A stretch of 64,000 nt of DNA from positions 1 through 64,000 of the forward strand of contig NGBS01000012.1 of NCBI GenBank assembly GCA_002245135.1, read 5' to 3'. The position numbers and the translations under genes are program-made. The notes under the pieces are model-generated. The model was not told where the DNA came from and ran no database searches. It saw only the letters and a list, made by a program, of their open reading frames with translations. Positions 3,001-56,031 of the stretch are shown piece after piece. Each line of letters opens with the position of its first letter. The first letter of the stretch is position 1. This DNA is from Proteromonas lacertae (Eukaryota).

Positions 3001-4854
3001 CAGTCCATTGTTTATGTTAGATATAAATGAATATGAAAAAGATATGATTTATATAACTCATTTGAGAGTTCCTCCAATCAAATTACGAGTAACATTTACA
3101 GTTGGTGATAATAATTTCTTAGAATTTTTACCCAAAACAATTCGAGCGATAATTGGAAGTGTATTAAATATCGCTGGAAATTTAGAAGATGTAGTAATAA
3201 AAATCAATCCTTATCATACGAATTATTTATATTATTCTACTGTATATATTATTATTATTATTATTATAAATAGATGTTATTAATCTACAATGTAATTGGT
3301 CATTATTACAAACAATTTGTACTTCAAGGCTTGAAAGTATTTGGTAGTTTAGATGTGATAGGAAATCCATTTGGTTTAGTAAAGAATATTGGAATTGGAT
3401 TTCGAGATTTATTTTATGAACCAGCAAAAGGTTTAACTAAAAGTCCAGCAGCATTTGGTAAAGGAATAAAGAAAGGAGGAGTATCTTTTGCAAAACATAC
3501 AGCTGGTGGAGTATTAAATACAGTTGGTAAATTAACAAATACAGTTGGTTCATTAGCTCATGGTTTAACATTAGAAAAAAGAAAAGAGCCAATTCATAGT
3601 AAGAATGCCAAAGCTGGAATTGAGAATGGTGGAAAAGCGATATTTAATGGATTTAAAAGTGGTTTTACTGGTTTAATAAATGATCCAAAGAAAGGTTTAA
3701 AAGAAGGAGGTGTATTAGGTTTAATGAAAGGAATAACAACTGGAGTAGTTGGATTAGCTGCAAGACCAGTAGCTGGTGTATATATTATATTATATTAATA
3801 TTAATATTAATAGATAATTGATGGAGTATCTTATACAGTAAATGGAGTAAAGAATTCAGTAAGTGGTGAAAAGGAACGAAGTTTAATTCGAAAAATGCGA
3901 TATTATGATAGTAGTCGAATAATCTATGGATATGAAGATCGAGACAGTTTAGGATTATCCATAATGCAAAAGAACAAAATGAATATAGATCAATATTTAT
4001 GGTGTGAAATCTGTAACAATCGTCAAAATGTATTAATGGTGAATAGTCAAGAAATAATTAGTTTTGATAATCGAAGTAATAAAAGACTTTATCGAATAAG
4101 TATAGATAAAGTATCAATAAAATATGATGGATGTATATTGAGTTTATTACATGATGGTAATAAAAGTGAAACTTTTATATTTCAGAGTGAAGAAACATGT
4201 GAATTTTTAAATGAATTAATAAAACAGATGAAAGAAATGGAATGTTTAGATATTGAACATATGTGGGAATTGAGACAATGGATATCTAAGAATGCTCTAT
4301 CTAATAATTCGATAAAAGAAATTGATAATAATGGTGAGAGTGAATTAAATGATGAAAATGAATTAGATAATAATAATAATATAAAAGAAAAGAAGATCGA
4401 AATGGAGAAATTGAAGATAATTGATATGAGATTCGTAGGTCATGATAGCCATAAAGAAGATAAAGATATAATAGGAAGTGCTCGTAGTTTTATAGTTTAT
4501 CGATTAGAAATGATAAGTGAAAATAATGTTTATAGTTTTAATACATTTAAAAGATGGAGTCAATTACAATGGTTATTCGATAAACTTCATAGTTTAGATA
4601 AAAATATAAAAATTCCCAAAGAAAATCTATTTAAAGCGTTTGGAACAAGTATGAAATATATATATATTATAATTATATTCTGAATAGAAGTTCATTTAAA
4701 ATCGAAAGATGATAGTGGTTTAATAAAAGAAAGATCTGAAGCGATAATTCATAATATAGAAGTAATAAAGAAGAATAAATGGTTAGAGAGTAATACTATG
4801 TTGATAAATTTCTTGAAAGAAGATGCAATAAATGTGAAAAGAATAAGTGAATGA
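1..4854 (+). CDS. VPS13: VPS13-family lipid transfer protein, 3' part (VAB/SHR-BD repeats, C2, PDZ-like, VPS13_C/ATG_C, PH-like, C-terminal PX-like); 5' end outside window
   Basis: Motifs GISFIS..DLLYFT, IQLDNLIPNCAYPVLL, VFGSLDVIGNPFGLVKNIGIGFRDLFYEP and the Gly-rich GLMKGITTGVVGLAARPVAG. Introns 3242-3273, 3777-3813, 4649-4687; stop TGA 4852-4854; two apparent +1 frameshifts near 471 and 627. Confidence 0.92.
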
Positions 4855-4914
4855 GATGTTTGAATAATAAAAATATAACAATAATAATATTTGATTAATA
4901 ATAGAATTGTATTT

Positions 4915-7900
4915 TTATAAATTGTCATTTACTTTTTTCAACATTTCTTCAAATTCTATCCTCTGAAATTCATCTTCAACACTGGATATGTATTTACTTG
5001 CTTCATTCAAATATTTCTTTGATTCTTCATAATCTTTCTATTTTCATTATAATCACATTCATATATATACAATATCAAAATAACATTCACCCATTTCATT
5101 ATTACATCTAAATCTCTCATAATCACTTTTAGCTAATTTTAATGCATTATTATATTGTTCTTTAGCTTCATCAATAGTACCTAGCTTAAATAAATACTTA
5201 CACACATATATATAATATAGGCATCTATCTTCATCTGATTCAGCAAAGTCAATTGCCGAAGTAATACAATTAAATGAGTTTTCATAATTATTCTATTATA
5301 AAACAATTGAAATATATACAAAGCCCAAATAACAATCACCTAAATTCATTAAACACATATATTTTTGTTTGTTTGTAGTTGCAAATCTTGATGCTATGTT
5401 ATAATGATCTAATGATTTTTCATACTCTTTCTATAACAAAAGTAAATCAGACACTACTATACAATATTAAAATAGCATAAACCAATATTTAAATTGCAAC
5501 TATAATTCTCTTCATCTGTTGATGCAAGATTTAATGCACATTCAAAATAATCTTTTGCTTTTTCATATTCCCTCTATAATAATAATAATAATTGTTTATA
5601 ATCATACAATCTTCAAATCACAAACACCTATTCTAAAGTTGCATAAGTAAATCTTTTCATTTGTGGAAGCAAAGTCTAAAGCAGATTCTAAATATTCAAT
5701 TGCTTTTTTAATTTCTCTCTATATTATCATTTATATCAAGTATAATACTGTTAGTTCATAAAAATTACTGATAGTGAAACAACATTCGTATTTTTCTTCA
5801 TTTTTAGAAGTGAATTGTAATGCAGACTCAAAATGTTCTAGTGAATTATTTAAATCACCCTATAATATGAATATTTTTATGGTTATACTAGATTGCCATA
5901 ACACAATGCTATATGGTTGTTATATAAATATTTCATTCTGTTAATATACTGCAAAGATTCTTCATCTAAAGGGTTAAGATGTTCTAATTCATAGAGATTC
6001 TCAAATGCAGTTTTAAAATATTTTATAGCTTGTTCATATTCTTCAACATTTGCACTGCACAAACCAATATTAAAGTAACAATCACATTTTTCTCTATTTG
6101 TAAATGCAAAAACTAATGCTGATTCAAAACGCTCTTTAGATTCTTTAAATTGATTCTATATATTCATTTATACACAAAATTTATACTAGATTTCGATAAC
6201 TTTCACCAATTTTGAATTTGCATTTAAATTTTTCATTATTTGTAGATGAATCATTTAGAGCAGTTACAAGGTATTCTATTGATCTTATATAATTCTTCTA
6301 TAAAGAAATAATAGATAATATATTTACTGAATTAAAACTTTCATATCCTCTTGTATAATTTTCAATGTATTTTTTTACTTTTGTAAATTTTTCAATATAT
6401 TCTTCATCTTCTATTGAGTATAAGAACTTGATTATTGAGTTGATTGTATCCAGGTTGTTATGATCAATTAAATCAATCAGTATATGTAAATCATTTAGAT
6501 ATATTTCTTTGTTCTTTTTCAATTCTACTGCATCATCTTCACCATATGGAGGATTTTCTTGATTTATTGAAGGAAATAACACCTATGATTTAAATAATAG
6601 AATATATTTATGTTTATATACAGTTGTTAATTCAATTTTCCAATACGATGAGAATTCTTTATTGCTCATTTTAATAATTTCATTCAATGTTTTACCTTCT
6701 ATAAAACCACCTCCTAAATAAAAATTCAGAATTTTAGAATCACAAAAAGAAGTATCTTCACTTGTTCCATTACTCACTGAAGTTGAAGGTAATGTTGAAT
6801 CATTATTAATATAAGCATTAACTTCTTTAAACATATCTTCAAATAATTTCTTATCATATGGATCTTCTACACCTGAAATATAAATATTTGCTTCATTCAA
6901 ATGTTTCTTGGATTCTTCATAATCTTTCTATTCTCATTATAATAATCATCATATTATATACAACATCAAAATAGCATTTACCCATTATATATTCACAACT
7001 AAATTTCTGATAATCAGTTTTGGCTAATTTTAATGCTTTCTTATATTGATCTATAGCTTGATTATTAATACCAAGTTTAAATAAACATTCACACATAAAC
7101 ATAGAACATATAAGTCTATCTTCATCAGATTCAGCAAATTCTAATCCTGAGATATAAAATCCCAAAGCTTCTTTATATTCTTTCTATAATTATTATAACT
7201 GCATAAATTATACAAGATTCATATTAATACAACCTAAGTTTATACTACATTTGTGTTTATTTTTTTTATTATTGCAAATTTTGACGCAGATTTATAATAC
7301 TCTATTGCTTTATCTAATTCATTCTATTGTATTATAAATAACAAATAATCATACTAGATCTGCATAACATACACCTATACCAAACACACAATTGAATTTT
7401 TCTTCATCTGATTCAGCAAATTTTAATGCATCATTCAAATGTTCAATTGATTTTATATTTTCTTTCTATAAATCAATTTATATCAACTATTATACTTTCG
7501 ATAAAAAATATCTACTTATATTAAGATAACATTCATATTTCTGTTTCTTTGTTGAGGAGAATTCTAATGCAGAATTAAAAGAATCAATTGCTCTGTCATA
7601 TTCAAGCTATAATATTAATTATATCATAATTATACTATTGCAGAATAACATTTACCTATAGTAGAATTACATTCATATTTATCTTCATTTGTTGAGGCAA
7701 ATTCTAAGGCAGAATTTAAATAGCCAAATGCTCTGTCATATTCAAGCTATAATATAAACAACTGTTAAAATCAATACTAAATATGTATAACACACACCAA
7801 GAGTGTAATTACTTTTGCATTTCTTGTCATTCATTTTAGATTTTGATGATTCTGTTAAACTACAATCATTTTCTAATAAAGATATATTATCTAATGTAGT

Positions 7901-9559
7901 TTTTAAAAAAGTAATTGACTGTCTGTATTCTTTCTATCACATTAAATAAATCATTAGTTATACAAGAGCAGCATAACATAAACCAATATAAAAGTTACAA
8001 TCACATTTTTCTTCTTTTGATGATGCAAAAACTAATGCAGATTCACAATGCTTTAATGATTCTCTGAAGTAATTCTATCACATAAAATTCTTAAGAAACA
8101 ATACAATTTCAAAATATGATTTACCTAGATTGTAATTACATTGGCGTAATTCTTCATCTGTATTAGCATTCTCTAAAGCAGATTTAAAACATTCTATTGC
8201 TTTTTCTATTTTTGCTATAAAATAAGATAAACATCCTATATACAGAATCAAAATATTTTGTAGCTTCTTTAAAATTTTCTTTGAATGTTTTTTCTTTTGC
8301 AAGTTTCTCCATATATTCTTTATCTTCTATTGAGTCTAAGAAGTTAATCATTGAGTTGAGTAGATCATCGTTGTTGTGATCAATTAAATCAATTAAGACA
8401 TGTAAATCATTTAGAAAATTGTCTTTATTCTTAATTAATTTTTTGGCGTCTTCTTTAGTATATGAAGGATTATCTTGACCTATTGAAGGAAAGAACATCT
8501 ATTATATAAATGTATTTATGTTTTTATACAAATTTAAATTCATCTTTCCAGTAGGATGAAAATTCTTCTTGTTTTATATCACAATATTCTGTCAATGTTT
8601 TACCTTCTATATTACCTTTTCCTAAATAAAACGATAAAATTAATGAATAATATGATGAAAAACTAGCTAATTCGTCTGAAGCTTCAGCTATTGATGGCGA
8701 AGAAAATGATGAATCACTTACAGAAGGAACAGGAGGAGTGTTTGATATTTTGTTTATTTCTTCTTCTATTTCATCAAGGTTTATTCTTTTATTCACATTT
8801 TTCTCTAACATTCGCTTTATTAATGCTTCTATTTGAGGAATTTTAACTCCACTTACTCTCGCAAAATCTAATTCTGTTCTTAAAAATAAATTATTTATTA
8901 TCTCCCTTTTGTTCTTTCCTTCAAAAGCAATTCTTAAGGTGTATATTTCAAACAAGATACAACCTAAAGCAAATATATCACTGGCTGTTGAATATGGAGG
9001 AGGTCTGGTTTGATATAATTCAGGAGCCATGTAACTATAAGTTCCTTTCAATACATCATCAGTACTATCAATTCCAGTTGCTAATCCAAAATCACTTATT
9101 ATTAATTCATTATGATCTCCTACTAAAATATTTCCTGGTTTTAAATCTCGATGGATTATTCCTTTACTATGAATATACTTTAAACCATTTATTAAATCTT
9201 TCATATACATCATCATTTCCTATATATCATTAATATATCATCATATATACATTTACTGAGAAATCTTCTTCTTTTTCAATCTTTTCATCTATCAGCTTCC
9301 ATAAATCACCATTTTTTAAATACTCTGTATATATATAACATTTATTTTCTTCTTCAATTATTACACTATCTTTTAGTATCAAGATATTTCGATCTCTCAA
9401 CTCTTCTAAAATCTTTATTTCATTTTTTATTGTCTCTAAATATCCTTTTTTTATTATAATCTCTTTTCTAGCTAGCTTTAAACCATTATGTCTTACTAAA
9501 CACACTTTGCTAAAACCACCTTCTCCAATTGTTTCATATTTTTCATCATTTATTTTCAT
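4915..9559 (-). CDS. Ser/Thr kinase (NEK-like) fused to two tandem [OGFr-like domain + 9 TPR-like repeats + capping helix] modules; 21 exons
   Basis: Intact kinase motifs GEGGFSKV, ARKE, HRDLKPGN, DFG, GTYSYMAPE, DIFALG. 20 phase-0 GT..AG introns of 27-39 nt traced by hand (e.g. 9220-9250, 8499-8529, 8075-8104, 6928-6961, 5038-5070). The frame runs from module 1 into module 2 within exon 6622-6927; stop at 4915-4917. Two exons are 1 nt short in A-runs. Confidence 0.85.
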
Positions 9560-9628
9560 TACGCTCTTAAATCAAATTGTTATTGTTATCAGCTAAAAAT
9601 TTAATTAAAAATTTTGATATTCAAACCT

Positions 9629-9649
9629 AAGAATCAAACCTGCATTATT
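9629..9649 (-). promoter_or_regulatory. Conserved upstream element AATAATGCAGGTTTGATTCTT (copy 1)
   Basis: Identical 21-mer at 12106-12126; lies about 70 nt upstream of ATG 9559. Confidence 0.55.
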
Positions 9650-9759
9650 TACTCATTCATAATTATATGTGGTAATATTTAGACACTGCTTGACAAATCA
9701 AAAAAATCATTATAAAGCAACAAAAAACATTGATAGAAGCAAAGAGAATAATTGTTTTT

Positions 9760-12069
9760 TTATTTATCATTCAATTTATTAAATATTTCTTCTAATTCTC
9801 TATTTAACTCTTCATTTACACTTGATTTATATTTATATGCTTCACATAAATACTTCTTGGCATTTTCTATATCATTCTATTTTCAAAATAATAATAATAA
9901 TCATTATAGTATATATACTCTTTCAAAAAGAAGTTTACCCAATTTATAACTACATATAAATCTTTCAACATCTGTATTAACTGATTCTATTGCTCTATTA
10001 TAATTATCTACTGCATCATCTATCATACCAATACTATACAAACAAGCACACATATACATATTGCATAAGCACTTATCCTCATTCAATTCTACATATTCTA
10101 ATGCTAAAAGTAGGTATTCCATAGATTTTTCAATATTATTCTATTATATTAACAATTCAAATAATCATACAAGTTTCAAATAACTTGCACCTAAGTAGAA
10201 ACAACATTCGTATTTTACTCTATTTAAGCATGGTAGTTCTAAAGCCCATTTGAAATGTTCTATTGATTTTTCATAATCTTCCTATTTAATTATATAACCA
10301 TTTAAAAACTTACAATATCATAATAACAATAACCTTTTTTATATTCAAATATAAAACACTCATCTTTTGTAAATATATCTTTCACTCGAGATGAAAAATT
10401 TTCTATTAATTGTTTATATTCTTTCTATTTATATATATATATATATTATTAAAAATGAATATATACTATTTTGTTGTTACATATATCAATATTTAATTCA
10501 CAATTCTGTCTTTCTTCACTTGTTGTACATTTTTCTAGTGTTGATTGTAAATATTTCATTGACATTTTATTTTCTCTCTATCATAATATTATTCATTATA
10601 TTATACAAGAAAGGAACAATAGTTAGACATAATAGCTGAATAATATGAAAGCATTTTTTGTTTCGTTGTTGCATACTTTAATCCTTCTTCTAAATATTCT
10701 GTTGATATATCATATTCTTTCTATTATAATGTCTATAATTATATGCATACTAGAACTGAATAGCAAATAGCTATATCATAATAACAAGAGCTTTTTTCTA
10801 TATCTACATAAGATACTTCCAATGCAGATTTAAAATAATCAATTGCTTTTATGTAGTCTTGCTATTAATTCATAAAGTCAAATATATATACAACACTTTC
10901 ATAGCATTTACCTAAATAGTAAATACATGAACATTTTTCTACATTTGTATATGCAAATTGTAAAGCAGTAGTCAAACATTCTATCGATTTTTCATTCTCT
11001 TTCTATTAAAAAAAAAGTATAAGTATTAATTACTATAATCATACAAGATTGTAATAACATCTTCCAATGTTAGAGTAGCAAAGACATTTATTTTCATTTA
11101 TATAGGCAGTTTGTAATGCAACTTGATAAAACTGTATAGATACTTCATATAATCCCTATTCAAAATAATAAACAACACTTATATATACCATTATTAAGTA
11201 ATTTTCACCAATACTAGTATTACATTCAAATCTTTCTACATCATCAGTTGCCAACTCTACAGCTTTAAGTAAAAATTCTATTGATACTTCACATTCACCC
11301 TATCAAATTGATAAATAAATGAATATAAAATACAAGATCCATATAACAAAAGCCAATTTTGCTACTACATTCATATTTTTCTTTATTTGTAGATGCATAT
11401 GTCAATCCACGATAAAAATACTCTAATGCTTTAGCATATTGCTTCTAATTGTATAATAGTAAAAAATAGATTTACTGTAGAGAAATAGTTATCTCCTGTA
11501 TTTATAAATGATTTACATGTTTCTTGATCTGTTTTGGTAATTAATATCTTAGTATTATCATTAGGTATTTCATTTACATCATATGAAGGTTTTAAATATT
11601 CCAATTCCCTAAAGATGTCTACTGGAGGTTGTTCATATTTTTCTATAGATCTTTTCACTTCAATCAGTTTTTCAACATATTCATTATCTTCTATAGACGA
11701 TAAGAAGTTTATCATTGAATTGACTACATCTTTGTTGTTTTTATCAATCAAGTCAATTAGTTTATGCAAATCATTTAAATATTTGTCCTTGTTATTCTTT
11801 AATTCTGCTACTTCTTCATTTGTATATGACGGTTCTACTTGGTTGATTGAGGGAAAGAATATCTATTGTATAAACAAATATAATAAATGATATACAAATA
11901 CAAAATCATTTTTCCAGAATGAAGAAAAAACTTCTGGCTTTATTTCAACAATCTCTTTTAAGGTTTTGCCTTCAATTACTCCATTTCTTAAATAAAAATT
12001 GAGTACTAAAGAATTATAGTTAAGAGAATAATTAGCTAGTTCACTAGATGCAACACAAGGTGGTAACAT
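9760..12069 (-). CDS. Kinase-less paralog: OGFr-like domain + 11 TPR-like repeats + capping helix; 13 exons
   Basis: ATG 12069 (MLPPCVASSELA..LNFYLRNGVIEGKTL). 12 phase-0 introns of 29-42 nt (11863-11895 through 9877-9918). Repeat exons are 111 nt, with one 114 and one 222 nt; the spliced frame is open to TAA 9760-9762. Confidence 0.87.
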
Positions 12070-12105
12070 CAGAAAAAAAAAAAAGATTTGAACGAAATCA
12101 AGCCA

Positions 12106-12126
12106 AAGAATCAAACCTGCATTATT
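12106..12126 (-). promoter_or_regulatory. Conserved upstream element AATAATGCAGGTTTGATTCTT (copy 2)
   Basis: Identical to 9629-9649; about 37 nt upstream of ATG 12069. Confidence 0.55.
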
Positions 12127-12404
12127 ATTTGATGATGAAAAAGAAACTCTATTAAAGAAAAATATTCCATCTGTTTTATATCCATTTGTAGAAATAACAT
12201 ACAGTGGAGTTTATGTTGAGTTATTGTCTTTTATTCACTAATGAAGATGTAGAACAAAGAGTTTATGACTTTATTATTATTATTATTATTTTATTTTAAT
12301 TTTGTGTTGTTAAACTAAAAACAAATCATTAAAAATATTAATAATAGGAATATATATTTTTCATTTTACTTTTAATCTACTATAATCATCATCATTTTCA
12401 TTCA

Positions 12405-19646: not shown

Positions 19647-22600
19647 AGTATAATGATATAATTCTTATATATAAATCATTATATACTTATTCTGCATAGT
19701 GTCCGCTACTACAATTGCTTGTAACAACACTATTCCAAGAATCAATGATACTCAAGGTAAGTTAGTATTAGCTGATGGTACAACTTTTCAAGGCAAATGC
19801 TTTGGTGCTAAGAAGCCTGTCACTGGTAGATTGGTTTTCAACACATGCTGCGTTGGCTTCCCAGAATTGATAACTGACCCTTCAGTAAAAGGTTTAATTG
19901 TTGTCTTCACCTATCCATCTGTAGGTGGATATGGTGTTCCAAAGACACAATTACGAGATGAATTGGAACTTCTTAAGTATTATCAATCAGAACATATCCA
20001 AGTAGAAGGTGTAATTTGTGAAGATTATAGCGATACATATAGTAATTTTGAAGCAGAAAAATCCTTAGGTGCTTGGTTAAAAGAGAATAATGTTCCTGGT
20101 TTATATGGTATAGATACAAGAATGTTAACCAAGAGAATAAGAGAAAATGGATCATGTGGTGCAAAGATTGAATTTGATGGAGAAACTATTCAAATTGTAG
20201 ATCCAGATAGTGTTGACTATGTAAGTCAAGTGTCAAGAAAAGATGAAAAAGTTTATAATAAAGGAAATAGTCCAAAATTGTGTGTTGTAGATTTAGGTTT
20301 AGATTATCAGACATTAAGATACTTAATTCAACAAAAATGTGAAGTTACTGTTGTTCCATTTAATTATGATATGAAATCAAATGCTTCAAAATATGATGGT
20401 TTCGTAATAAGTAGAGGTCCAGGAAATCCATTACTGTATAGTCCAATAGTTGAACAATTAAGATCATTGATCGAATTAAGTAAGCCAATCTTAGCTATGG
20501 GTTTAGGATACAATTTATTATGTTTAGCTGCTGGTGGTAAAGTAATTAAAATGAGATATGGTAATCATAGTACCAATTCCACTGCAATTGACTTAAGAAC
20601 CACTAAGTGTTATGTTATCCATCAAGATCATGATTATGTAATAGATGAAGAGTCCTTACCTTCAGAATGGATCCCATTATTAATGAATGCAACTGATCAT
20701 AGTAATGAAGGTTTTGTACATGTCACAAAGCCATTTATTGGAGTATCTTTTCTACCAGATGCTAATCATGTTACTAATAATACAAGTTATATATATGATT
20801 TATTCTTCCATAATGTCAATGAACATACATTACCTATTACTACAGTACCAAAAGCTACTTATGATAAACCAAAACCACAGAAAGTATTGTTATTAGGTTC
20901 GGGAGGTTTGTCTATTGGTCAAGCTGGTGAGTTTGATTATTCAGGTAGTCAAGCAATCAAAGCTTTAAAAGAAGAAAGTATTGAAGTAATATTAGTTAAT
21001 CCAAATATCGCTACAGTTCAAACATCAAAAGGAATGGCTTCAAGAGTATATTTCTTACCAGTTACAAAGTATTATGTAACAAGAATCATAGAGAAAGAAA
21101 GACCTGATAGTATATTAATCTCAATGGGAGGACAGACAGCATTAAATGTTGGTTTAGAGTTATATGATTCAGGAATATTATCCAAATATGGTGTTAGAAT
21201 ATTAGGAACACCTGCAGAAACAGTAAGAGAAACTGAAGATAGAGAATTATTTGCAACTAAAGTCACTGAAATTGGTGAAAAGATTATAGAAAGTTGTTCA
21301 GCTAAATCAATGGAAGAAGCAATAGCCGGTGCTGAAAGAATTGGTTATCCTGTATTAGTTAGAGCTGGATTTGCTTTAGGAGGATTAGGTTCAGGATTTG
21401 CTAAGAATAGAGAGCAATTTGTTGAATTAGCTAAAAGAGCATTTTCAGTATCCTCTGATGTATTTATTGATAAAGATTTAAGAGGATGGAAAGAAATAGA
21501 ATATGAAGTGGTCAGAGATGGTCATGATAATTGTTTAACTATCTGTTCAATGGAGAATTTCGATGCATTAGGTATTCATACTGGTGATTCTATTGTTATT
21601 GCTCCAACACAATCATTAAATAATCATGAAGCTGGTATGTTACGTGATGCTGCTATTAAAGTTGTTAGACATATTGGTATAGTAGGTGAATGTAATATTC
21701 AATTTGCATTAGATCCATATAGTGATAATTATTATATTATTGAAGTGAATGCTAGATTATCAAGATCATCTGCTTTGGCATCTAAAGCTACTGGTTATCC
21801 ATTAGCATATGTAGCTGCAAAGATTTGTTTAGGTGTTGATTTGATTAATATAAAGAATAGTATTACTAGATTCACTTCAGCTTGTTTTGAACCATCTGTT
21901 GATTATATTGTATGTAAATTCCCAAGATGGGATTTGAATAAATTCAACAAAGTATCCAATAAGTTAGGATCTTCAATGAAATCAGTAGGTGAAGTCATGT
22001 CTATTGGTAGAAAATTCGAAGAAGTTATTCAAAAAGCAATTCGTATGATTAATCCTAAAAGAAATGGTTTTGAAGCTGATGGTGCTACAAAATATACTAA
22101 AGAGGAATTAGATAATATATTAGAATATCCAGATCATATGAGAATCTATTGTATTGCTGAAGCATTTAATAGAGGTTATACTGTCCAACAAGTATATGAT
22201 TTAACAAAGATAAATGAATGGTTCTTATATAAATTAAAGAATATTCATGACTGTAGAATGTCATTGAAAGGAAAGAATTTATCAACATTAAGCGAAGAAA
22301 TAATAAGATCCTTAAAATGTGATGGTTTTAGTGATATTCAAATCGCTTCTTATGTAAATACCACAGCGAATGAAGTAAGAGCAAAAAGATTATCAATGAA
22401 TATTCATCCTTATGTAAAACAAGTAGATACAATGGGTGGTGAAGTAAAAGCCTATGAGAATTACTTGTATATGACTTACAATGGTTCTGAACATGATATA
22501 AAATTCGATGATCATGGTGTAATGGTATTAGGATGTGGACCTTATTCAATTGGATCATCTGTAGAATTTGATTGGGCAGCAGTAAATTGTATTCGTACTT

Positions 22601-24117
22601 TACGAAGTGCTAAAATCAATACAATCGTAGTAAATTGTAATCCAGAAACAGTTTCAACTGATTATGATGAATCTGATAAATTATATTTTGAAGAATTAAC
22701 ATTAGAAAGATTATTAGATATTTATAATTTAGAAAGTTCATCTGGAATAATCGTATCTGTTGGTGGACAAATACCAAACAATTTATCAAAACCATTATAT
22801 GATAATGGTTGTGTGATTTATGGTACAAAACCAGAACAGATTGATCGTGCTGAAGATCGATCTGTATTTAGTGCTATGTGTGATTCATTACATATTGATC
22901 AACCATCTTGGAGTGCATTAACATCAACTCAATCTGCAATAGATTTTGCTAAGAGTGTTGGATATCCAGTAATTGTTAGACCTAGTTTTGTATTATCAGG
23001 TGCAGCTATGTCTGTAGCTCATAATGAAGATCAATTAAGTCAATTCTTAGATAAAGCAATAGATTTTTCAAACAATAATGCATCAGTTGTAATATCTAAA
23101 TATGTACAAGATGCTCGAGAGATTGAATTTGATGGTGTTGCTAAGAATGGTCAGATATATGTATATGCGATAAGTGAACATATTGAAAATGCAGGTGTTC
23201 ATTCAGGAGATGCATCTGTTATGTTACCAGCTCAAAAATTATATGTCAAAACAGTATTTGAAGTTAGAAGAATTGCATCTGCAATAGCGAAAGATTTAAA
23301 AATTACTGGTCCATTTAATATTCAATTATTAGCTACTGATAATGAAGTGAAAGTGATAGAATGTAACTTACGAGCTTCTCGAACATTCCCATTCATATCT
23401 AAAACCTTTGATTTTAACTTTATTGACTTAGCAACAAAGTTAATGGTTGGTTTACCAGCAAAATTACCAAATTTCCATTTAAAAGATATTCAATATATAG
23501 CAATCAAAGTTCCAATGTTTTCATTTACTCGATTGATAGGTGCTGATCCAACATTAAGTGTAGAAATGGCTTCAACAGGTGAAGTAGCCTGTTTTGGTGA
23601 AACAGTTCATCATGCTTTATTAAAATCATTAATAGCTTCTGGTTTTAAGATTCCTCCAAGTGGATCAAATATATTAATATCTGTAGGAACATTGAAACAA
23701 AAGATAGCATTTTTAGAATCATGTCGAGCTTTAGTAAAGATGGGATACAATGTATATTGTACAAAAAGAACTTATGATGTTTATAAAGAACATAATATAG
23801 ATGTGAAATATATATCTAAACCAAGTAGTGATGAAAAACCAAATGCAAAAGATTTAATATGTGATGGTAAGATCTCTTTAGTTTATGTTGATCCTCAAAA
23901 AGACAGTGAAGCTGAAATAACTGATGGTTATATAATCCGAAGAACAACTGTAGATTTTGGAATTCCTTTATTAACAAATAATAAGATGGCAGTTGCTTTT
24001 GTATTAGCTTTACAAAAATTGAATGAAGTAGGTTGGGATAAATTCTTTGGTATAAAATCGATGGATGAATATTATGAAATGGCTTCAGTAGAGATAGATG
24101 GTCCTAACTCAATATAA
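19647..24117 (+). CDS. Carbamoyl-phosphate synthetase, fused small+large subunit with C-terminal MGS-like domain; glutaminase site degenerate
   Basis: LYGIDTRMLTKRIR, LGSGGLSIGQAGEFDYSGSQA, GIHTGDS, EVNARLSRSSALASKATGYPLA, GVHSGDA, IECNLRASR. No DHO or ATC fusion. ATG formed across intron 19648-19699. Confidence 0.96.
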
Positions 24118-27500: not shown

Positions 27501-30500
27501 AGTGAAAAATCAACTCCATGTACAAGGCCAACTACTACAAATTCATCAAAAAGAAAAAATGCTCAATCTCCATTATCGATTGTATCACAACCTCCAGTTC
27601 AAAAGAGAAAGAAAATAATGTATGATGCAGCTGGTGAAAGAATAGTGGTTGATGTTGAAATACATTTGTCCGATGATACAATTAGTAGACCAATTACAGA
27701 GAATGTAGAAAAAAGAATAGATAACCAATTAGAATTTGTTGATCCAGAAGGCCATTTTGAGATTAGAATACCCTATTCATTTTTACCATTGTGGCATACT
27801 GATGAATCAGGTGAATTGCCATTAATTGGAGCCAAAACACCATTGTCATTAGATTTAACAATAAATACAATAGAAGAAATATGGAAAAGAAAAGATATCA
27901 GTGATAATATTTCTTCTTTATCATATAATGTTCCTGTTCAGTTATCTCATATTAGTTATCAATACTTTATTAATCAGTATGGTGATTGGTCACTTAACAC
28001 AAAACAAATTATTACAATTCTTATACAGTGTTATTATCTATAAATCAATACCTGAATGTCATTCTTATGGTTTATTATTAGGTTTATATACAAATGAAGG
28101 TGAAGTAAGATATGATGCTTGTAGTGTATTTTGTAGTGTAAGAAGATATTTAAATACAAGAGTGTTATATGGTAGTAATATTGATCGAAGTAGACATCCT
28201 GGACATGGATATTTACTACCACTTAGTATTGTAACTGTATATATATATAATATTTATATTATTATTTCGAATAGGATGTATTAGAAAATACTTTAAGTCA
28301 ACTATTATCAAGTGAAGCAATCTCATCACTTCAACAGAATGTGAAAGCATTAGCATTTCATCATGAGTATAAATATATTAATATCAACTTATATGCTTAT
28401 TATAATTATATATATATATAGAAAAGGAGATTGTGTTTATGTTGAAGAAGTTTTATTACATTTAATTGTATTGTGGAATAACAGTCGATCATGATGATGA
28501 TTTTAATAATACAAATATCTCATTGAAATCTTCACTTTCGTTAAAACCAATAGCAGTGAAAAGAGAAGTAAATGATAATTTAATGCATTTGTTAAGAGAA
28601 CAAATATTATTTAATCTTGATAAGCAGTTTAGATATTATGATAAAGGACAGACAGGATTTATTCCAACCACAAAATTTAGAGAGATTTTGAGTAAAACAA
28701 AAGCAATTTTGTGGGGTAAAAACTATCCACAATTAAATGAAATAAGAAAGATTGAAGAAGCTTATTCTTCTGTAGAAAATGAAAGATTTGATGATTTGCA
28801 ATTTTCCAGTGAAGAATTAGATAATCCAGAGAATGGAATGGTTAATTATGGAAGTTTTATTAATCGATTATATGAATTTACGGATAGAATTCCTGATTTT
28901 ATTGATGTAGTAAATGATACAGATTGTTCAATATTAGATGATCCAATATTTGCATTGAAATTCAAAATTGAAGACAACAATCCTTTTATTGATCTTTCTA
29001 AGACAATTCCTGTTGATGAAAATGTAAATAAAAAAGTTGAAGATACTTTGGTGATTTCAAAATCAAATTTATTACCCAAAACTGATGCAAATATTACTAC
29101 CAATATTGATGCTAATTTAAGTAGAGCTAATCCTCATGTAAATGGTAAATGGGTTTGGGGAACTTTTAAGAATGGAAAACATAAAGTGTTGAGATTAATA
29201 GAAGAAGAAATAGCAATAAAATCACCTCTACAATCACCAAGACGATTACCATCATTCTCAAAGAAAAGAAGGAGATCTTCATTCTTAAGAGAGTATATAT
29301 ATAATTATTAATCTATAAATTATTATTGTTTATAGATCTACAATCACATTATCACCAACAAAACAAGGTGAACAACAAAGATTTGTCACTTCACCAATTG
29401 AAGACCTTGGTTCAATTACATATATGACAACTACACCTCCAATACCAAGATCAAGAGGTCATTCTGAATCAAGAGGATCATCGACAGAAAATGAAAAGAG
29501 ATATTCAATGGTTTCTATTCCTGAAGTGAATAATGATGTTTCAAGATTATCAGTCTCAGAACCTGTAAGAGTATCTGTAATAACAGAAGAACATAGTCGA
29601 GAAACAACACCACAACAATATCAGCAAGAACTACAACAAGAGGAAATAGAACAGCAACTACAGCAAGAACAAGGAGAAGAAGGTTATATTCGTCCTAATT
29701 CTAAAGTTAGTAATAACAGTCATATTTCAATTGAAGTAGCATCAATGCCAATTCATAAGAATACAATCTTTGCCAATACAGAGACTGAATATTATGATGA
29801 ATTATGGAATTGGGAAGTTCCAGATGTAAAAACATCACCAAAACCAAAGAAAACAAAGAAGAAGAAGAAGATTTATAATGAAGTGAAGAAAGATGATAAA
29901 TGGAGACCTCCAAGACCAGCTATTAATACAATCCCTGAAATTACAATGGAAATGTTATCAGTAGTTTCTGGATTAAAAGCTGATGGATTTAATGATCCAG
30001 AAGCTGATAAGAATAGATATAACAAATTCAATGAGCCAACGAAGAAATATCAATATTACACAAAGCCAAAAACGTATTGTTATTATATTAATAGTTTTAT
30101 TTTTCAATAGACCAGAATTGCAAGTAATTGAAGAAGAAAAAAAGCCGAAACATTCAGGAGGAGGAGGTATGTTATCATATCCACTAAATCAAAAAACAAA
30201 TGTAAAAGGATTAGGTCATTTACCAGTAAGAACAGATATGCCTTCAGTAGTAATGCAAGCAATACAAAGTGCCAAAAATACTCCAAAACATCTAAAGCAA
30301 AGACCAGAATCGCCAGAATTACAAAAACAAGGTAGTTTATCAAGAGGTACAACTCCAAATGTAGGTAAAAGAGATAGTAAAATGATAATGAGACCTGAAT
30401 TAGAACATTTGAGATTTTCACAAGTATATATATATATATTTATATATTCTTTTTATTATCATTATTATAGATTGGAAATAATAGAAATAGTCCAACAGCA

Positions 30501-32718: not shown

Positions 32719-35700
32719 ATGTCGTCAGATCTTAGTATATAACACACAGAATACTAATATATAGGGTCAACGATTGGTAGAATCAGTAGAAGTTCAAGGC
32801 AATCAAGAACTTCATTTGGAGATTATGCAGGCCAGATGAAAATGGCTACTGATAAAGCCATCTATATTCGTAAAAGTCAAGCCGGATTACAGCCTGTAAA
32901 ACCAGAAGAGATAAGATCAGCAAAATCAACAACTGATGCTAGTAAAAGAAAAAAGAAGGATGTAAAGAAAGACAACACTGAAGATCTTAAGAAGGAATTG
33001 GATATGACAGAACATCTAGAAGATATCCAAACTTTATTGGATAATTACCACTCAAATGCTGAAACAGTATATTTAACCTAATCTCTGATATAATAGGGTA
33101 TGACAGAAAGTGATTATGAAACAGCCAAGGAAAGATATGGCTTAAACAAGATGAAACCACCTCCAACCACTCCAGAGTGGTTAAAATTCATCAAGGAAAT
33201 CACCAAAGGATTCTCATTATTATTATGGGCTGGTGGTATCCTTAGTTTCATTTCTTATGCATTACAAGGAAATAGTTCTGATTTATACTTAGGTATTGTT
33301 TTATGTTGTGTAGTTTTATTAACTGGTGTGTTTCTCATACTGGCAAGATAGAAAATCAGGTGCTTTGATGGATAGTTTCAAGCAATTAATGGCTGATACT
33401 TGTACAGTTATAAGAGGTGGTAAAACCTTTGTAGCAGCAGCAGAATCATTAGTTCCTGGTGATATTATATTAATGAAAGGTGGTGAAAAAGTACCTGCTG
33501 ATGTAAGAATAATTGAATGTAGTGATGATATGCAAGTTGATAATGCTTGTTTAACTGGTGAATCTGAACCATGTAAAAGATCACCCGAATCAAAACATGA
33601 GAATCCTCTTGAAGCTGATAATTTAGCATTCTTTGGAACACAAATTCCAAAAGGTAGAGCAACTGGAGTAGTGATAAAGACAGGTGATAATACAGTAATG
33701 GGAAGAATAGCCAAATTAGCAGTAGCAACAGAAACTGAAGAAACACCAATCTCCAGAGAATTAGGTCATTTTATTAAAATGATTAGTTGTATAGCTCTTA
33801 TACTAGGAATTGCAATATTTATTATTGGATTTATCATTGGTACTCAATGGCTTCAAAATTTTGTATTTATGATTGGTATTATTGTTGCTAATGTTCCTGA
33901 AGGATTATTAGCAACAGTTACTGTTGCACTGACATTAACTGCTAATAGAATGTACTTAGAGAATGTATTGGTGAAGAATTTAGAAGGTGTAGAAACATTA
34001 GGATCAACTACGTGTATTTGTAGTGATAAAACTGGAACATTAACTCAAAACATAATGACAGTGACAAATGTTATGTATAACTGTGAAATTAAGAATTGTG
34101 AATGTTCATTATATGATGCTAAATTATTTGATGTTGACAAGAACAATAATTGTTTTAAGAAGTTAATGAGATGTGCTTGTATATGTAATAAAGCTAAATG
34201 GGATGAAAATAGTAAAGTTGAATGTGATCAAGATGGAAAACCAATATTAAAAGATGGTAAAGAAATACCAATTCCATTCATGAAGCAAGTGAGAGTTGGT
34301 AATATCGTAGATCATGTAGTACAATGGAAACCAATAGGAGATGCTAGTGAAAATGCATTGATTAAATATGTTCAAGGATTTTCTGGTATAACTGATGATA
34401 TTGATACATTTAGAAAAGATTTCCCTATTATTAAAGAAATTCCATTCAATTCAACTAATAAATATCAAGTAGCAATAACAAAACAAACCGGCAAGCCAAA
34501 TCATTTAATAACAATGAAAGGAGCTCCTGAAAGAATCTTAGGTCGATGTAATAAATATTATGACAATGATGGAAATCTTCAAGATTTAACAAAAGAAGTT
34601 TTACACAAGATTGAAGAAAACCAAATCGAATTGAGTAAGCGAGGATTAAGAGTATTAGGATTTGCTGAATTAGAATTAGATGCCAATGAATATCCTGAAG
34701 ATTATCCATACAAATCTGATAGACCAAACTTCCCATTAGGTGAATGTTGGAAAGAAGGAGAAGAACCAAATTCACAACAATTTGATCCACAACATGTTAG
34801 AAAACCATTAAACTTCATAGGAATGACTGCTATGATTGATCCTCCAAGACCACAAGTGCCTGGAGCTGTTATGAAATGTCAGACTGCTGGAATTAGAGTA
34901 ATAATGGTAACTGGTGATCATCCTATTACTGCTAAAGCTATTGCAAAGAAAGTTGGAATAATTTGGAGTGAAACTGAAGATGAATTAGTAGAAATCAATA
35001 AGAAGAATGGATTTTATGATGAAAAGAATCCGAAAGAAAGAACTGCTGAAAATGGTTATAGAGAACCTGCCTTAGCTGATGCAATCGTAGTTCCTGGAAA
35101 TGAATTTGGAGTTGATACACCTGATGAAGTATGGGATGATATTTTGAGTCATTCTCAAGTTGTATTTGCTCGAACAAGTCCTCAACAGAAGTTATTGATA
35201 GTAGAAAACTGTCAAAAACGAGAAGAAATTGTAGCTGTAACTGGTGATGGAGTAAATGATGCTCCAGCGTTAAGAAAAGCTGATATAGGAATTGCGATGG
35301 GTATAATGGGAAGTGCCGTAAGTAAAGATGCTGCTGATATGATTCTGTTAGATGATAATTTCGCTTCGATTGTTCAAGGAGTAGAAGAAGGTAGAATGAT
35401 ATTTGACAATTTGAAAAAACCAATTATATATACACTATCATCAAACATACCAGAATTAATACCATTTGTATCATTCATAGTCTTAGGATTACCATTACCA
35501 TTAGATACAATAACGATATTATGTATTGATTTAGGTACAGATATGGTTCCAGCAATTGCTTTTGCTTGGGAAAAGGCAGAAAGTGATATAATGAAAAGAC
35601 CACCAAGATATGCCAAAGAAGATCGATTAGTTACAGGTAAATTGTTAATGTTCGGTTATCTACAAATGGGTGTGTTTCAAACATGTGCTGCAATGTTAAC

Positions 35701-36862
35701 ATATTTCTATGTAATGAGTGATTATGGTTATCCTGCTGATATATTACCAAGATCTGGTGCTAGTTATAACTGGGGATATCAGACAATGTATTGTTCATTC
35801 CATAATGGTGTATTTAAGAATATTAATGGTGAAGAATATCCTAAAATGAATCAGATTAAGTTTGATCAAGGTAGTGCAACTGTTGAAGCAATTCATCAAG
35901 CTTTTAATGATGGATATTGGTTCTATGATGCTGACAATTATAGAGGAAGTATTGAAAAGTGTTTATATGCTGCTAGGAACTTTGATAGTAGTAGCACTAA
36001 ACCAGAAGGCTATGAAAGATTCTATAATGTTAGTAATTTTGGTAATGGTGAAAAAACAATCTCAGATATGTCAATCCAAGCATTATACAACCGTGGAATG
36101 GTTGAATATATTCCTTATAAATCCGTACAATCTGTATTTTGGGATAATCGATGGTTATCTTGGGATGTTGAAAAAGATGGTGCAAAAGTTTTGGGTAAAG
36201 TCGAAAATGCCCCAGGTGATACAATATTCTATTTATATCAACCATATGGTGTGTACCAGATATTATCTAAAGATCAGAATGGTGAAAATGCTGTTTTAAT
36301 GAAAGATAACTATGAAGGTATTACTTTCAACGGATTAGCTGTAAATGAGAAGAAATGTTTCACCAATGCAACATTAGTTACTGGAGATCCTTCTATTGCT
36401 GATAATATTTATCAATTCCCTTACAATACTGTTCGTAAGAATGGTAAATTCTATATAAATGTCGCTTCTCGTATGTGTCAAGCTGAGGTTTTATCGCATG
36501 CACAATGTGCTTACTTCGTTTCGGTTGTCGTTGTTCAATGGAGTAATGCTTTATCAATTAGAACTAGAATAAACAGTATGTATCAACAAGGAATGAATAA
36601 TTCTGTCTTAATCTTCGGTTTTATCTTTGAAACATGGTTAGCTATGATGTTGTGTTATGTTCCACCATTTTGTACTGCTTTTGGTACAAGACCTTTGAGA
36701 ATTACTCACTGGTGTTGCGCTATGGTATGGATGATGTTCATGATCGTTTATGATGAAGTGAGAAAATATTTGATGAGAAGATTTAGCCATGTTTATGAAG
36801 ATAAACAAACTCACCAAATATTTAGAGAGCCATGTTGGTTAGAAAGAAATACCTTCTGGTAA
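32719..36862 (+). CDS. P2C Na+/K+-type P-ATPase alpha subunit, copy 1
   Basis: LTGESE, IIVANVPEGLL, CSDKTGTLT, MKGAPE, MVTGDHP, TGDGVND, ILCIDLGTD. Introns about 32735-32764 and 33067-33096; +1 frameshift near 33331. Confidence 0.95.
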
Positions 36863-37045
36863 ATGTATTAAATATCTGTTAAGCATTACTTTCTGATTGT
36901 CACTTGTTTGTTTATGAATATTTTTAAAAAAATACAAATACTATTTTAAGCCTCAGATGTAAGATCTGGTTGGTTGTTATAAAATTGCTTTTTTAGAAAA
37001 GGTATTGTTATTATTAATTATAATTCTCATAGAAACGAAATAATA

Positions 37046-40000: not shown

Positions 40001-41135
40001 TGGTTTTCCAGCAAAGATATTACCAAGAGCTGGTTCTAATGATAATTGGGGAAAACAAACGTTATATTGTTCATTTACTGGTGGTGTATTTAAGAATATT
40101 AATGGTGAAGAATATCCTAAAATGGATCAGATTAAGTTTGATCAAGGTAATGCAACTGTTGAAGCAATTCATCAAGCTTTTCAAGATGGTTATTGGTTTT
40201 ATGATCCAGGTTTTAGTCAAAAGCATCTTGAGAAATGTTTATTTGCTGCTAGAAACTTTGAAAGTAGTGGTACTAAACAAGATGGATATGAAAGATTCTT
40301 CAATGTTGGTAGTTATGGTGATAAGGAATTATTAGTTACAGATTTAGCAGTAGAAGGACTTTATGAACAAGGAATGGTTGAATATATTCCTTATAGATCA
40401 GTACATTCAGTATTTTGGGATAATAATTGGTTAAAATGGAATCCTGAGGATGGTGCTGCTGATGGAATGGGTTCTGGACCAGCAGATTCAATTACCTATC
40501 TTTACCAACCAAATGGATTATATCAAGTATTATCCAAAACTCAAAGTGGTAAAGATGCAATAGGAATGAGAGGTTCTGAAGATTTTGTTACTTATCATGG
40601 TGATACTGAAGGAATAAATCCAAAGAAATGTTTTAATAATGCGACATTGGTACAAGGTAATTCAGAAGTAGAAGGTTATCAATTCCCATATAATACAATC
40701 TTTGAAAAAGGTAGTAAAAAGAATAGAATTAATATTGCATCAAGAATGTGTCAAAGAGAAGCATTATCCCATGCTCAATGTGCTTACTTCGTGTCTGTTG
40801 TTATGGTCCAATGGGGAACTAATTTAATTTCTAAAACAAGATTGAATAGTTTATACAACCAAGGAATGAAAAATTATGCTATGAATTTTGGTTTTATCTT
40901 TGAAACTTGGTTAGCTATGATGTTGTGTTATGTTCCACCATTTTGTACTGCTTTTGGTACAAGACCTTTGAGAATTACTCACTGGTGCTGTGCTTTCCCT
41001 TGGTTTATTGGGTTAGTTTGTCTAGATGAATGCAGAAAATACATTATGAGAAAGAAAGTTGTTATGTATGCAGATAAAGCAACAAAGCAAGTGTTTAGAG
41101 AACCGTGCTGGTTAGAAAGAAATACATACTATTAA
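37046..41135 (+). CDS. P2C Na+/K+-type P-ATPase alpha subunit, copy 2 (start may lie further upstream)
   Basis: Same P2C motifs; KKSIVYTLTSNIPE; C-terminal RNTYY; intron 37532-37573. Intron-like segments upstream of 37046 make the exact start uncertain. Confidence 0.95.
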
Positions 41136-55303: not shown

Positions 55304-55950
55304 ATGCTTCGTAGAGGTATAAAAAGTATAACAAAGTCTTTAACAGTAAATAAAAGATCTATATTTTCAATAATTCATTCATCCAGGGACTCCATTCAAA
55401 CTTTTCAAAGCCATAAGTTTCCTGAGACTGTTTTAGGTCTTCCTAGGTATATTATTAGTTATGTTAATTTTATATAGAAGTCAAGCTGCATTAGTACTAT
55501 TATCTTGTTATATTGGTTTAGATCTCAAATACTTCAGAAGTAATATATACATCAGGTTTATATGGGATAAATCATGCTGGTCATTTAGTTGGACCAACTA
55601 TACAAGAACAAACAGAACAAGTATAATAAATTCCAAATAATATGTTGTTTTATTCTTTTTAGATACTAAAAAATCTATCAGGAGTACTAGAAGACGCTGA
55701 TTCAGGTCTTGAATATGTAGTTAGGACAGAAATATTCTTATTAAACATGAAAGATTATGAAATTATGAATACAGTGTATAAAAAATACTTTTTAGAAAAT
55801 CTTCCAACTCAGAATGTATCACCATGCACAGGTTTCCCAATAGAAGGAGCTAAAATAACAATGAGTTGTGTTGCTCTTCCTTTGAGAACAATTAACGAAT
55901 TAAAGAAATTAAGAGAATTCTCATTCAAAGATTGGGATCCTAAAATATAA
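55304..55950 (+). CDS. Rid/YjgF/UK114-family protein, copy 1, putative organellar presequence
   Basis: GLPR|SQA, IYTSGLYG, TIQEQTEQ|ILKNLSGVLEDADSGLEYVV..FLLNMKDY..MNTVY. Includes a 16-nt micro-exon at 55478-55493; the 5' exon structure is less certain. Confidence 0.8.
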
Positions 55951-56031
55951 TTAAATGTAACTTAAAAGTTTATTATATTGTAACATTTTGTATGAAAGAG
56001 AAATTCAATTTTTAATTATTTTGAAACGATA

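What the first reader, a model, noticed from the sequence alone, without database searches (positions are those of the whole stretch)
5071..11444. One repeat = one 111-nt phase-0 exon across both TPR-like genes
Seen: repeat exons measure exactly 111 nt, e.g. 7964-8074, 7636-7746, 7496-7606, 7355-7465, 6187-6297, 5749-5859, 5608-5718, 5463-5573, 5320-5430, 11334-11444, 11189-11299, 11045-11155, 10892-11002, 10751-10861, 10467-10577, 10314-10424 and 10171-10281. The last repeat pair is a 222-nt exon in all three modules, and every intron is phase 0, whereas other genes here use mixed phases. Inference: any exon can be skipped, duplicated or swapped in frame, permitting combinatorial splicing or recombinational shuffling. 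The 9 vs 11 repeat difference fits this.
Basis: partly seen in the sequence, partly recalled or inferred. Interest (0 to 1): 0.75.

Follow-up and report, generated by a model that had tools for sequence, protein, structure and literature searches.

The report
Repeat-per-exon TPR arrays, slowly reshuffled
Two neighbouring genes of a microbial eukaryote build their predicted protein-binding repeat arms almost exactly one repeat per short exon, and the arms have likely gained or swapped single repeats by DNA recombination over evolutionary time rather than by splicing, a design already described in brown algae and ciliates.

Summary
The layout is real. Two minus-strand genes (A: kinase + 2 x [N-domain + 9 repeats]; B: N-domain + 11 repeats) hold 29 TPR-like 37-residue units on 25 exons: 17 of 111 nt, three of 222, and five exceptions (110, 110, 114, 156, 267). 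All 32 predicted introns are phase 0 (33 of 68 elsewhere in the window), and 28 sit at the same helix turn. This is the signature of one exon+intron unit copied in tandem, not 32 independent events. Exon trees give a mixed result: order is broadly kept between the two A modules, but strict collinearity is rejected (AU p=0.018), one neighbouring pair is a young duplicate or conversion (96/99 support), and single-repeat exons are silent-site diverged while the frame is not. Predicted ligand-groove residues vary most (omega about 1.4, not significantly above 1). Combinatorial skipping is untested and unlikely: predicted introns are 25-60 nt, and a skip needs 169 nt or more. Two 110-nt exons break gene A's frame as assembled, probably sequencing indels. 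Closest known: Ectocarpus NB-ARC-TPR and Tetrahymena 90-bp LRR arrays. This is a new variant: no NTPase, micro-introns, and an unnamed N-domain.

The parts
4915..9559 (-). Gene A: protein kinase + [N-domain + 9 TPR-like repeats] x 2; 21 exons, 20 phase-0 introns, about 1,340 aa if the two one-base gaps are sequencing errors
8530..9559 (-). Ser/Thr kinase domain (exons 9251-9559 and 8530-9219), with Gly loop, HRDLKPGN, DFG and APE present; the 3' end of the second exon starts the first N-domain
   Evidence: Pfam Pkinase E=5e-35 and 2e-11; motifs read from the translation
8244..8664 (-). N-domain copy 1 (about 120 aa, split by the phase-0 intron 8499-8529), ending in the first TPR helix A
6962..8214 (-). 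Repeat module A1: exons of 110*, 111, 156, 111, 111, 111, 110*, 222 nt (* one base short)
8105..8214 (-). 110-nt repeat exon A1r1, one base short in an A run at its start; gives a stop codon as assembled
7214..7323 (-). 110-nt repeat exon A1r7, one base short in a run of eight A; frameshift as assembled
7496..7746 (-). Young tandem pair A1r4 (7636-7746) / A1r5 (7496-7606): 77% identical, 85% over the first 78 nt
6328..6927 (-). Capping helices of A1, Ser/Thr-rich linker and N-domain copy 2 (intron 6583-6621)
5071..6297 (-). Repeat module A2: exons of 111, 267 (two repeats, no intron), 111, 111, 111, 111, 222 nt
9760..12069 (-). Gene B: N-domain + 11 TPR-like repeats + cap; 13 exons, 12 phase-0 introns, 633 aa, open frame
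11476..12069 (-). N-domain copy 3 (intron 11863-11895), with a 44-residue insertion before the first helix A
9919..11444 (-). Repeat module B: exons of 111 x5, 114, 111 x3, 222 nt
9629..9649 (-). 21-nt element 70 nt upstream of gene A's start codon, identical to the one upstream of gene B; likely a shared promoter element
12106..12126 (-). The same 21-nt element, 37 nt upstream of gene B's start codon

Best explanation
The two genes encode predicted cytosolic TPR-solenoid binding proteins, one with a kinase, whose repeat arms likely grew by tandem copying of a single unit of about 141 nt (one 111-nt exon plus one ~30-nt phase-0 intron) and likely still change by occasional unequal crossing-over or gene conversion at the scale of one exon, while the mRNA is likely spliced one intron at a time without skipping. 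Shown: the exon register, the intron at the turn between TPR helices A and B (positions 14/15), one young neighbouring pair, patchy divergence between modules, differing repeat numbers, and fast change at groove positions. Inferred: each exon carries helix B of one TPR and helix A of the next, so all six groove residues of a repeat travel on one exon, and a gain, loss or swap would change one binding patch without breaking frame or fold. Phase-0 symmetry is the filter that let such events survive. The bound ligand is predicted to control the N-domain/kinase, as in a sensor. The ligand and any defence role are unknown.
For: Register: 28 of 32 repeat boundaries have an intron and none lies elsewhere in a repeat. 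Pfam TPR_1/TPR_2 matches (weak, best E=2.5e-5, below the curated cut-offs) place exon residue n at TPR position n-23. An AlphaFold2 model of the 222-nt exon (pLDDT 83) has four helices with a turn at 38-39, and its top Foldseek neighbours are mostly TPR proteins (NprR, LapB, BBS4; none at E<=0.001). Exon-scale change: A1r4/A1r5 clade 96/99 in DNA (82/74 in protein), 17 of 19 same-residue codons identical against a 65% background (p=0.018). Strict collinearity is rejected (AU p=0.018), collinearity without r4-r6 is not (p=0.45), and whole-module homogenisation is rejected (p=3e-5). A1-A2 identity by position runs from 55% to 81% (chi-square p=0.0009). Silent identity is 70 of 87 in the non-repeat frame but 64 of 98 in r1-r7 (p=0.03). 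Groove positions 2,5,6,9,12,13 (named in PMC1261162, passages) are the most variable (0 of 100,000 permutations), with omega 1.4 against 0.35-0.47 elsewhere; omega 0.4 is rejected by profile likelihood. Relatives: unnamed Logan reading frames run into Val (consistent with a GT donor, phase 0) right after the same helix in 5 of 6 clusters that reach it, and the sixth has a 37-residue unit followed by Val. Against skipping: a skip needs 169 nt or more and predicted introns are 25-60 nt; cassette exons track long introns and none was found in Paramecium (PMC2397502, passages).
Against: Only one young pair is well supported; A2r5/A2r6 is weak (81/78 support, z=1.7 after centring, third positions at background). 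Most internal branches have low support with 111 columns. The SH test does not reject strict collinearity (p=0.155), and the test restricted to r4-r6 is not significant (AU p=0.074). The order-keeping alignment of A1 and A2 prefers no register shift. The patchwork could equally come from conversion of the frame rather than replacement of exons. Omega=1 is not rejected at the groove, and groove variability is general to TPRs. Only three modules of one genome were compared. Gene A may be a broken gene. Exon skipping is associated with short introns in a few species such as Bigelowiella natans (PMC6142364, passages).
Confidence: 0.62

Rival explanations
1. Frozen relic: the array arose by exon duplication long ago and order and number are now fixed. 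The A1r4/A1r5 likeness and the patchy A1-A2 divergence come from local gene conversion and uneven rates, with no change in what the protein binds.
For: Mean repeat identity is 54% DNA and 27% protein. A1-A2 order is kept (p<0.001; p=0.0065 without the terminal pair). Both A modules have 9 repeats, the 15-residue insertion sits in r3 of both, and introns are missing at 4 of 32 boundaries. No spare exons lie in the window. Neighbouring repeats are not more alike on average than non-neighbours.
Against: AU rejects strict collinearity. Silent sites of r1 and r3-r7 are at background (48 of 76) while the frame is not (70 of 87). B's order cannot be traced to A outside the terminal pair (p=0.56 and 0.098). 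Repeat number is 9 versus 11.
Confidence: 0.22
2. Combinatorial splicing: symmetric exons are skipped in various combinations, giving many TPR isoforms from one gene, as reported for brown algal ROCO genes.
For: Every intact repeat exon is a multiple of three and phase 0-0. Up to nine transcripts are reported for Ectocarpus ROCO genes (PMC11378527, passages). Skipping the two 110-nt exons would restore gene A's frame if those gaps are real.
Against: A skip needs an intron of 169 nt or more; the longest of 68 predicted introns elsewhere in the window is 60 nt. All 32 splice-site pairs are uniform GTA...TAG. In short-intron protists retained introns outnumber cassette exons (PMC2397502, passages); here 27 of 32 retained introns would contain an in-frame stop.
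Confidence: 0.1
3. Repeats first, introns later: an old intronless TPR array gained introns independently at a favoured site in each repeat, so the register says nothing about exon duplication.
For: Four boundaries lack an intron, as does the first boundary in relative P0005; P0018 has intronless N-domains.
Against: 28 introns at one of 111 possible positions per repeat and none elsewhere. The exon bases flanking the introns vary, so there is no shared insertion site. Introns behind matching exons are themselves alike (A1r9/A2r9 is the best of 378 pairs).
Confidence: 0.03

Closest known systems
Ectocarpus NB-ARC-TPR genes with repetitive TPR exons (Zambounis et al., PMC3341825; abstract, passages and section 18 read)
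   Same: Stramenopile genes with one TPR period per equal-length exon, variable repeat number, local duplications within a locus, and variable binding surfaces.
   Different: There the unit is 126 nt / 42 aa behind an NB-ARC NTPase, introns hold inactivated spare exons, and order is barely kept between paralogues. Here the unit is 111 nt / 37 aa, there is no NTPase (kinase and unnamed N-domain instead), introns of 27-42 nt cannot hold a spare exon, and order is largely kept between A1 and A2.
[quoted passage not shown]
   Same: Unicellular eukaryote, exact-length repeat exons with one intron phase, clonal origin from one exon, change by unequal crossing-over, some fused to a protein kinase.
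   Different: LRR not TPR, phase 2, thousands of genes, retrotransposon-linked and longer introns in young copies. No such element fits in these introns, and family size here is unknown.
Brown algal LRR-ROCO genes (Teng et al., PMC11378527; abstract and passages read)
   Same: One repeat per symmetric exon; candidate receptors.
   Different: 72-nt phase-2 LRR exons, ROC-COR domain, reported splice variants in a long-intron genome.
OGFr_N (PF04664) domain, as a lead for the N-domain
   Same: Collinear likeness over 68 columns to eight bacterial OGFr_N proteins (hhalign P=0.003).
   Different: Probability only 6-10%; the conserved H-D-[YF]-I-Q-W stretch of those proteins is absent; Pfam does not report the family for any copy.

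Membership tests
TPR superfamily | Helix-turn-helix repeat with small/large hydrophobic pattern at positions 4,7,8,11,20,24,27 | tested here: met
   G8, Y11, A20, F/Y/L24 and A27 are conserved; Pfam TPR_1/TPR_2 E down to 2.5e-5 but below curated cut-offs on single exons; four-helix model; consensus-TPR structures are the top sequence hits
TPR superfamily | 34-residue period | tested here: not met
   Period is 37 (34 + 3 linker residues), so TPR-like in the strict sense
Ectocarpus-type NB-ARC-TPR | NB-ARC NTPase domain | tested here: not met
   No NTPase family in the 30 exons of the two genes scanned; the translations show only kinase, N-domain and repeats
Ectocarpus-type NB-ARC-TPR | One TPR period per equal-length, frame-preserving exon | tested here: met
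   17 of 29 repeats exactly; 28 of 32 boundaries carry a phase-0 intron; unit 111 nt instead of 126
Ectocarpus-type NB-ARC-TPR | Inactivated spare exons in introns | tested here: not met
   Introns are 27-42 nt; a DNA profile search of both strands of the window finds strong matches only at the 29 repeats
Ectocarpus-type NB-ARC-TPR | Exon order scrambled between recent paralogues | tested here: inconclusive
   A1-A2 order kept but strict collinearity rejected by AU; B not traceable to A outside the terminal pair
Ectocarpus-type NB-ARC-TPR | Diversifying selection on the binding face | tested here: inconclusive
   Groove omega 1.4, about 0.7-3 by profile likelihood; 1 not excluded
Brown algal ROCO-type splicing repertoire | Multiple transcripts with different repeat exons | not testable with these tools
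   No RNA reads could be laid on the locus
Tetrahymena 90-bp LRR arrays | LRR unit, phase 2, retrotransposon beside young units | tested here: not met
   TPR-like unit, phase 0, introns too short for an element
OGFr_N (PF04664) | Profile match over the domain with the conserved His-Asp...Gln-Trp-Leu-Phe-Pro block | tested here: inconclusive
   hhalign score 22.8 against 7 proteins, above 100 of 100 shuffles, P=0.007; 24.9, P=0.003 with 8 proteins; the block is only partly kept; no Pfam hit
Ser/Thr protein kinase (PF00069) | Gly loop, catalytic HRD, DFG, APE | tested here: met
   activity not tested

The most novel reading that the evidence does not exclude
An undescribed receptor family of a micro-intron flagellate stramenopile: kinase plus a degenerate OGFr_N-like module wired to TPR arms whose binding patches are each packed on one 141-nt exon+intron cassette and are exchanged among many paralogues fast enough to differ between strains. 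It would be an NTPase-free, independently evolved counterpart of brown algal shuffling receptors, working purely by DNA recombination because its introns are too short for skipping or for storing spare exons.
Probability: 0.2. Interest if true: 0.7.

Novelty: new variant of a known kind. Interest (0 to 1): 0.4.

Why it matters
Repeat-per-exon arrays are known, so the layout alone is not surprising. This case separates the two mechanisms usually invoked together: with introns of about 30 nt, skipping and intron-stored spare exons are largely ruled out, so any repertoire must come from DNA recombination. The genes are short enough for one amplicon or read to span an array, so strain or single-cell sequencing can measure exon turnover directly. 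It also adds an unnamed domain, found by these searches only in unnamed sequence-run contigs, that links kinases to TPR arms.

Tried and rejected
No RNA or DNA holder was listed for window 4800-12200, so no reads were laid; this says nothing about expression. No whole genome is held, so family size and genome-wide exon trees could not be made. N-domain searches: no longer relatives among 7,993 candidates; 10 hits among 1.84 billion representatives, of which 2 (P0007 fungal, P0009 bacterial) were set aside as chance and 8 kept; a near-length search returned only the 7 proteins already in the query alignment; nothing in JGI metagenome contigs by protein or DNA pattern, in prokaryote genomes, phages, PDB sequences or the ESM Atlas. 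The N-domain model was too poor to use (pLDDT 43) and its viral fold search gave nothing. The first OGFr comparison used the wrong strand for 3 of 7 loci and was redone. Codon-model searches did not print omega; one search did. A two-duplication model (A1r4/r5 and A2r5/r6) is not rejected (AU p=0.23) but its second half is weak. A chimeric origin of A1r4 was examined and is unresolved. Alternative splice sites that would restore the frame of the 110-nt exons were looked for among the candidates; none gives a full repeat. A bacterial promoter scan of the spacer was uninformative. Blastocystis was considered because of the 30-nt introns and rejected: the window has IFT121 and Blastocystis has lost nearly all flagellar genes (PMC10690189, passages). 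Literature: 10 searches listed no paper on 111-nt TPR exons or this domain arrangement; subscription papers and supplements were not seen, and the Plant J 2023 NB-ARC-TPR splicing paper was seen only as a reference-list title. Earlier scan notes: none for this genome, sequence or look-alike stretches.
Full report
Setting. The window is AT-rich, gene-dense eukaryotic DNA read with the standard code. A gene finder written for it predicts introns of 25-60 nt with GTA...TAG ends. The neighbours are a VPS13-like gene (name from my recall of its sequence) and IFT121/WDR35 (Pfam), so the organism likely has a flagellum. In a single-gene IFT121 tree of 40 rows (39 of the 120 listed hits, chosen for having names or high identity) the window's protein sits on a long branch in a 15-row group with oomycetes (SH-aLRT 99). 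A stramenopile is likely, not proven. No named relative is above about 51% identity; two unnamed ones are at 97% and 82%.

Observation. All 17 listed exons are exactly 111 nt, on the minus strand, flanked by TAG and GTA, and open from base 1. Full models: gene A, 9559 to 4915, is kinase + N-domain + 9 repeats (A1) + N-domain + 9 repeats (A2); gene B, 12069 to 9760, is N-domain + 11 repeats. The 29 repeats lie on 25 exons: 17 x 111, 3 x 222, 2 x 110, 114, 156 and 267 nt. All 32 introns are phase 0, against 33 of 68 in other genes after dropping 15 doubtful predictions (p=4e-8). These are copies of three positions, so the fair figure for phase alone is p=0.11. The strong fact is the register: 28 of 32 repeat boundaries have an intron and none falls elsewhere in a repeat. 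An identical 21-nt element lies upstream of both start codons and nowhere else in the window (0 expected), which supports two genes of one family.

The two 110-nt exons. Each is one base short in a run of A, and as assembled gene A stops after about 420 residues. At least five other one-base frameshifts are visible in unrelated genes of the window: two in the VPS13-like gene, one in a P-type ATPase judged against its paralogue, and two in the gene starting at 26025. At 5 per 47.6 kb, two or more in these genes has p=0.12. Sequencing error is the simplest reading; real decay of gene A is not excluded.

What the unit is. Pfam TPR_1/TPR_2 match the two-repeat exons weakly (best E=2.5e-5, under the curated cut-offs) and fix the register: exon residue n is TPR position n-23. 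A profile of 18 single exons finds consensus-TPR structures first. The AlphaFold2 model of the 222-nt exon (pLDDT 83) has helices 2-20, 23-37, 40-53 and 57-73, with mostly TPR proteins as the nearest folds (none at E<=0.001). So each exon is helix B of one TPR, a short linker and helix A of the next, and the intron sits in the A-B turn. TPR positions 2, 5, 6, 9, 12 and 13, which contact ligands in HOP (PMC1261162, passages), all fall in helix A and so on one exon. They are the most variable columns (mean entropy 3.15 against 2.10 bits; 0 of 100,000 permutations). Omega is 1.4 there and 0.35-0.47 in the other classes, 0.33 in the N-domain; 0.4 is rejected for the groove but 1 is not. These estimates use few columns and near-saturated silent sites.

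History of the exons. Mean pairwise identity is 54% (sd 6) in DNA and 27% in protein over 406 pairs. Position-true pairs: the terminal two repeats group by position across all three modules (98-99 support), and A1r2 goes with A2r2 (90/95); r3 carries a 15-residue insertion in both A modules. Order is kept between A1 and A2 (0 of 2,000 shuffles; p=0.0065 without the terminal pair) but cannot be traced between B and A outside the terminal pair (p=0.56, 0.098). Position-discordant: neighbours A1r4 and A1r5 group together (96/99), are 85% identical over the first 78 nt, the highest of 406 pairs, and share 17 of 19 same-residue codons against 65% background. AU tests reject strict collinearity (p=0.018) and module-wide homogenisation (p=3e-5) but not collinearity without r4-r6 (p=0.45); the SH test does not reject collinearity (p=0.155). 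Between A1 and A2, identity is 76-81% at r2 and r9 but 55-67% elsewhere (p=0.0009). Silent identity is 70 of 87 in N-domain and cap, 64 of 98 in r1-r7 (p=0.03), and at background in r1 and r3-r7 (48 of 76; a grouping made after seeing the data). This is a mosaic: a kept scaffold with exon-scale turnover or conversion. A DNA profile finds no spare or inverted exons in the window.

Relatives. The N-domain profile found 10 proteins among 1.84 billion representatives; 8 are unnamed Logan reading frames and 2 were set aside as chance. In 5 of the 6 clusters that reach the end of the first helix A, the next residue is Val, as expected when a gene caller reads into a phase-0 GT donor; the sixth (P0005) lacks that intron and shows a 37-residue unit followed by Val (p=4e-6). 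I could not see their DNA, so the introns are inferred. P0018 has kinase + N-domain + another domain + N-domain without introns, so the N-domain is a mobile module that follows kinases. I recalled a likeness to OGFr_N and tested it with 8 bacterial members found in about 1,100 genomes searched (one weak match with many stops dropped): hhalign P=0.007 with 7, above 100 of 100 shuffles, and P=0.003, probability 10%, with 8. It is a lead only.

Mechanism. Shown: register, uniform phase, one young pair, mosaic divergence, 9 against 11 repeats, variable groove. Inferred: a 141-nt exon+intron unit was amplified in tandem; unequal crossing-over and conversion still add, remove or overwrite units; occasional intron loss fuses pairs, and the fused terminal pair is the best-kept part. 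Skipping is unlikely: it needs an intron of at least 169 nt where the longest predicted is 60 nt. Across 42 eukaryotes cassette exons track long introns, and none was found in Paramecium (PMC2397502, passages). A few species link skipping to short introns (PMC6142364, passages), so it is not excluded. The likelier splice variant is intron retention, and 27 of 32 retained introns would contain an in-frame stop, giving shortened arms or decay. A sensor role (arm binds, N-domain/kinase signals) is inferred from the architecture; nothing here shows immunity.

Comparison and verdict. It works like the Ectocarpus NB-ARC-TPR and Tetrahymena 90-bp LRR arrays (PMC3341825, PMC6564038; passages) but belongs to neither: no NTPase, no LRR, another unit length and phase, no room for spare exons or retroelements. 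Earlier notes of this scan report several similar arrays in other protists, mostly judged old and fixed (unchecked), so the layout recurs. This case shows somewhat more turnover than those notes describe. New variant of a known kind; interest 0.4.

Noticed in passing
window 9629-9649 and 12106-12126: Identical 21-nt element upstream of both genes (29 nt at 93%), absent elsewhere in the window; likely a family-specific promoter or 5' UTR element.
   Followed up: partly
window about 470-500, 600-640, 27977-28028, 28433-28484, 33320-33340: One-base frameshifts in otherwise conserved genes (VPS13-like x2, gene at 26025 x2, first P-type ATPase), suggesting indel errors in this assembly.
   Followed up: yes
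window 32719-41135 (+): Tandem pair of Na/K-type P-type ATPases with long identical protein stretches in the middle, suggesting gene conversion; only the second has the intron at 37532-37574.
   Followed up: no
window 53465-55185 (+): LRR_6 gene with many repeats but only two predicted phase-1 introns: a repeat gene in the same window that is not built one repeat per exon.
   Followed up: partly
window 60618-62059 (+): DnaJ-TPR (DNAJC7-like) gene with internal exons of 186, 201, 270, 152 and 284 nt and mixed phases: TPR genes here are not repeat-per-exon in general.
   Followed up: partly
window 57429-57893 (+): Zinc-finger gene whose first internal exons are 64, 62, 64 and 68 nt with alternating phases 2 and 0, a second periodic exon pattern (predicted only).
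   Followed up: no
window 55304-56733 (+): Two tandem RidA/YjgF-like genes (family name from recall) with the same predicted intron phases and a 16-nt exon.
   Followed up: no
window 4915-12069 introns: 17 of 32 introns have a length divisible by three (p=0.02); being phase 0 and ending in TAG, each carries its own stop if retained.
   Followed up: partly
P0018 / P0010 (unnamed Logan proteins): Kinase + N-domain + a predicted beta-rich domain + N-domain in one intronless frame: the N-domain is combined with other domains than TPR.
   Followed up: partly
window 19675-24117 (+): Fused small+large carbamoyl-phosphate synthase in one 1,480-codon frame without introns.
   Followed up: no
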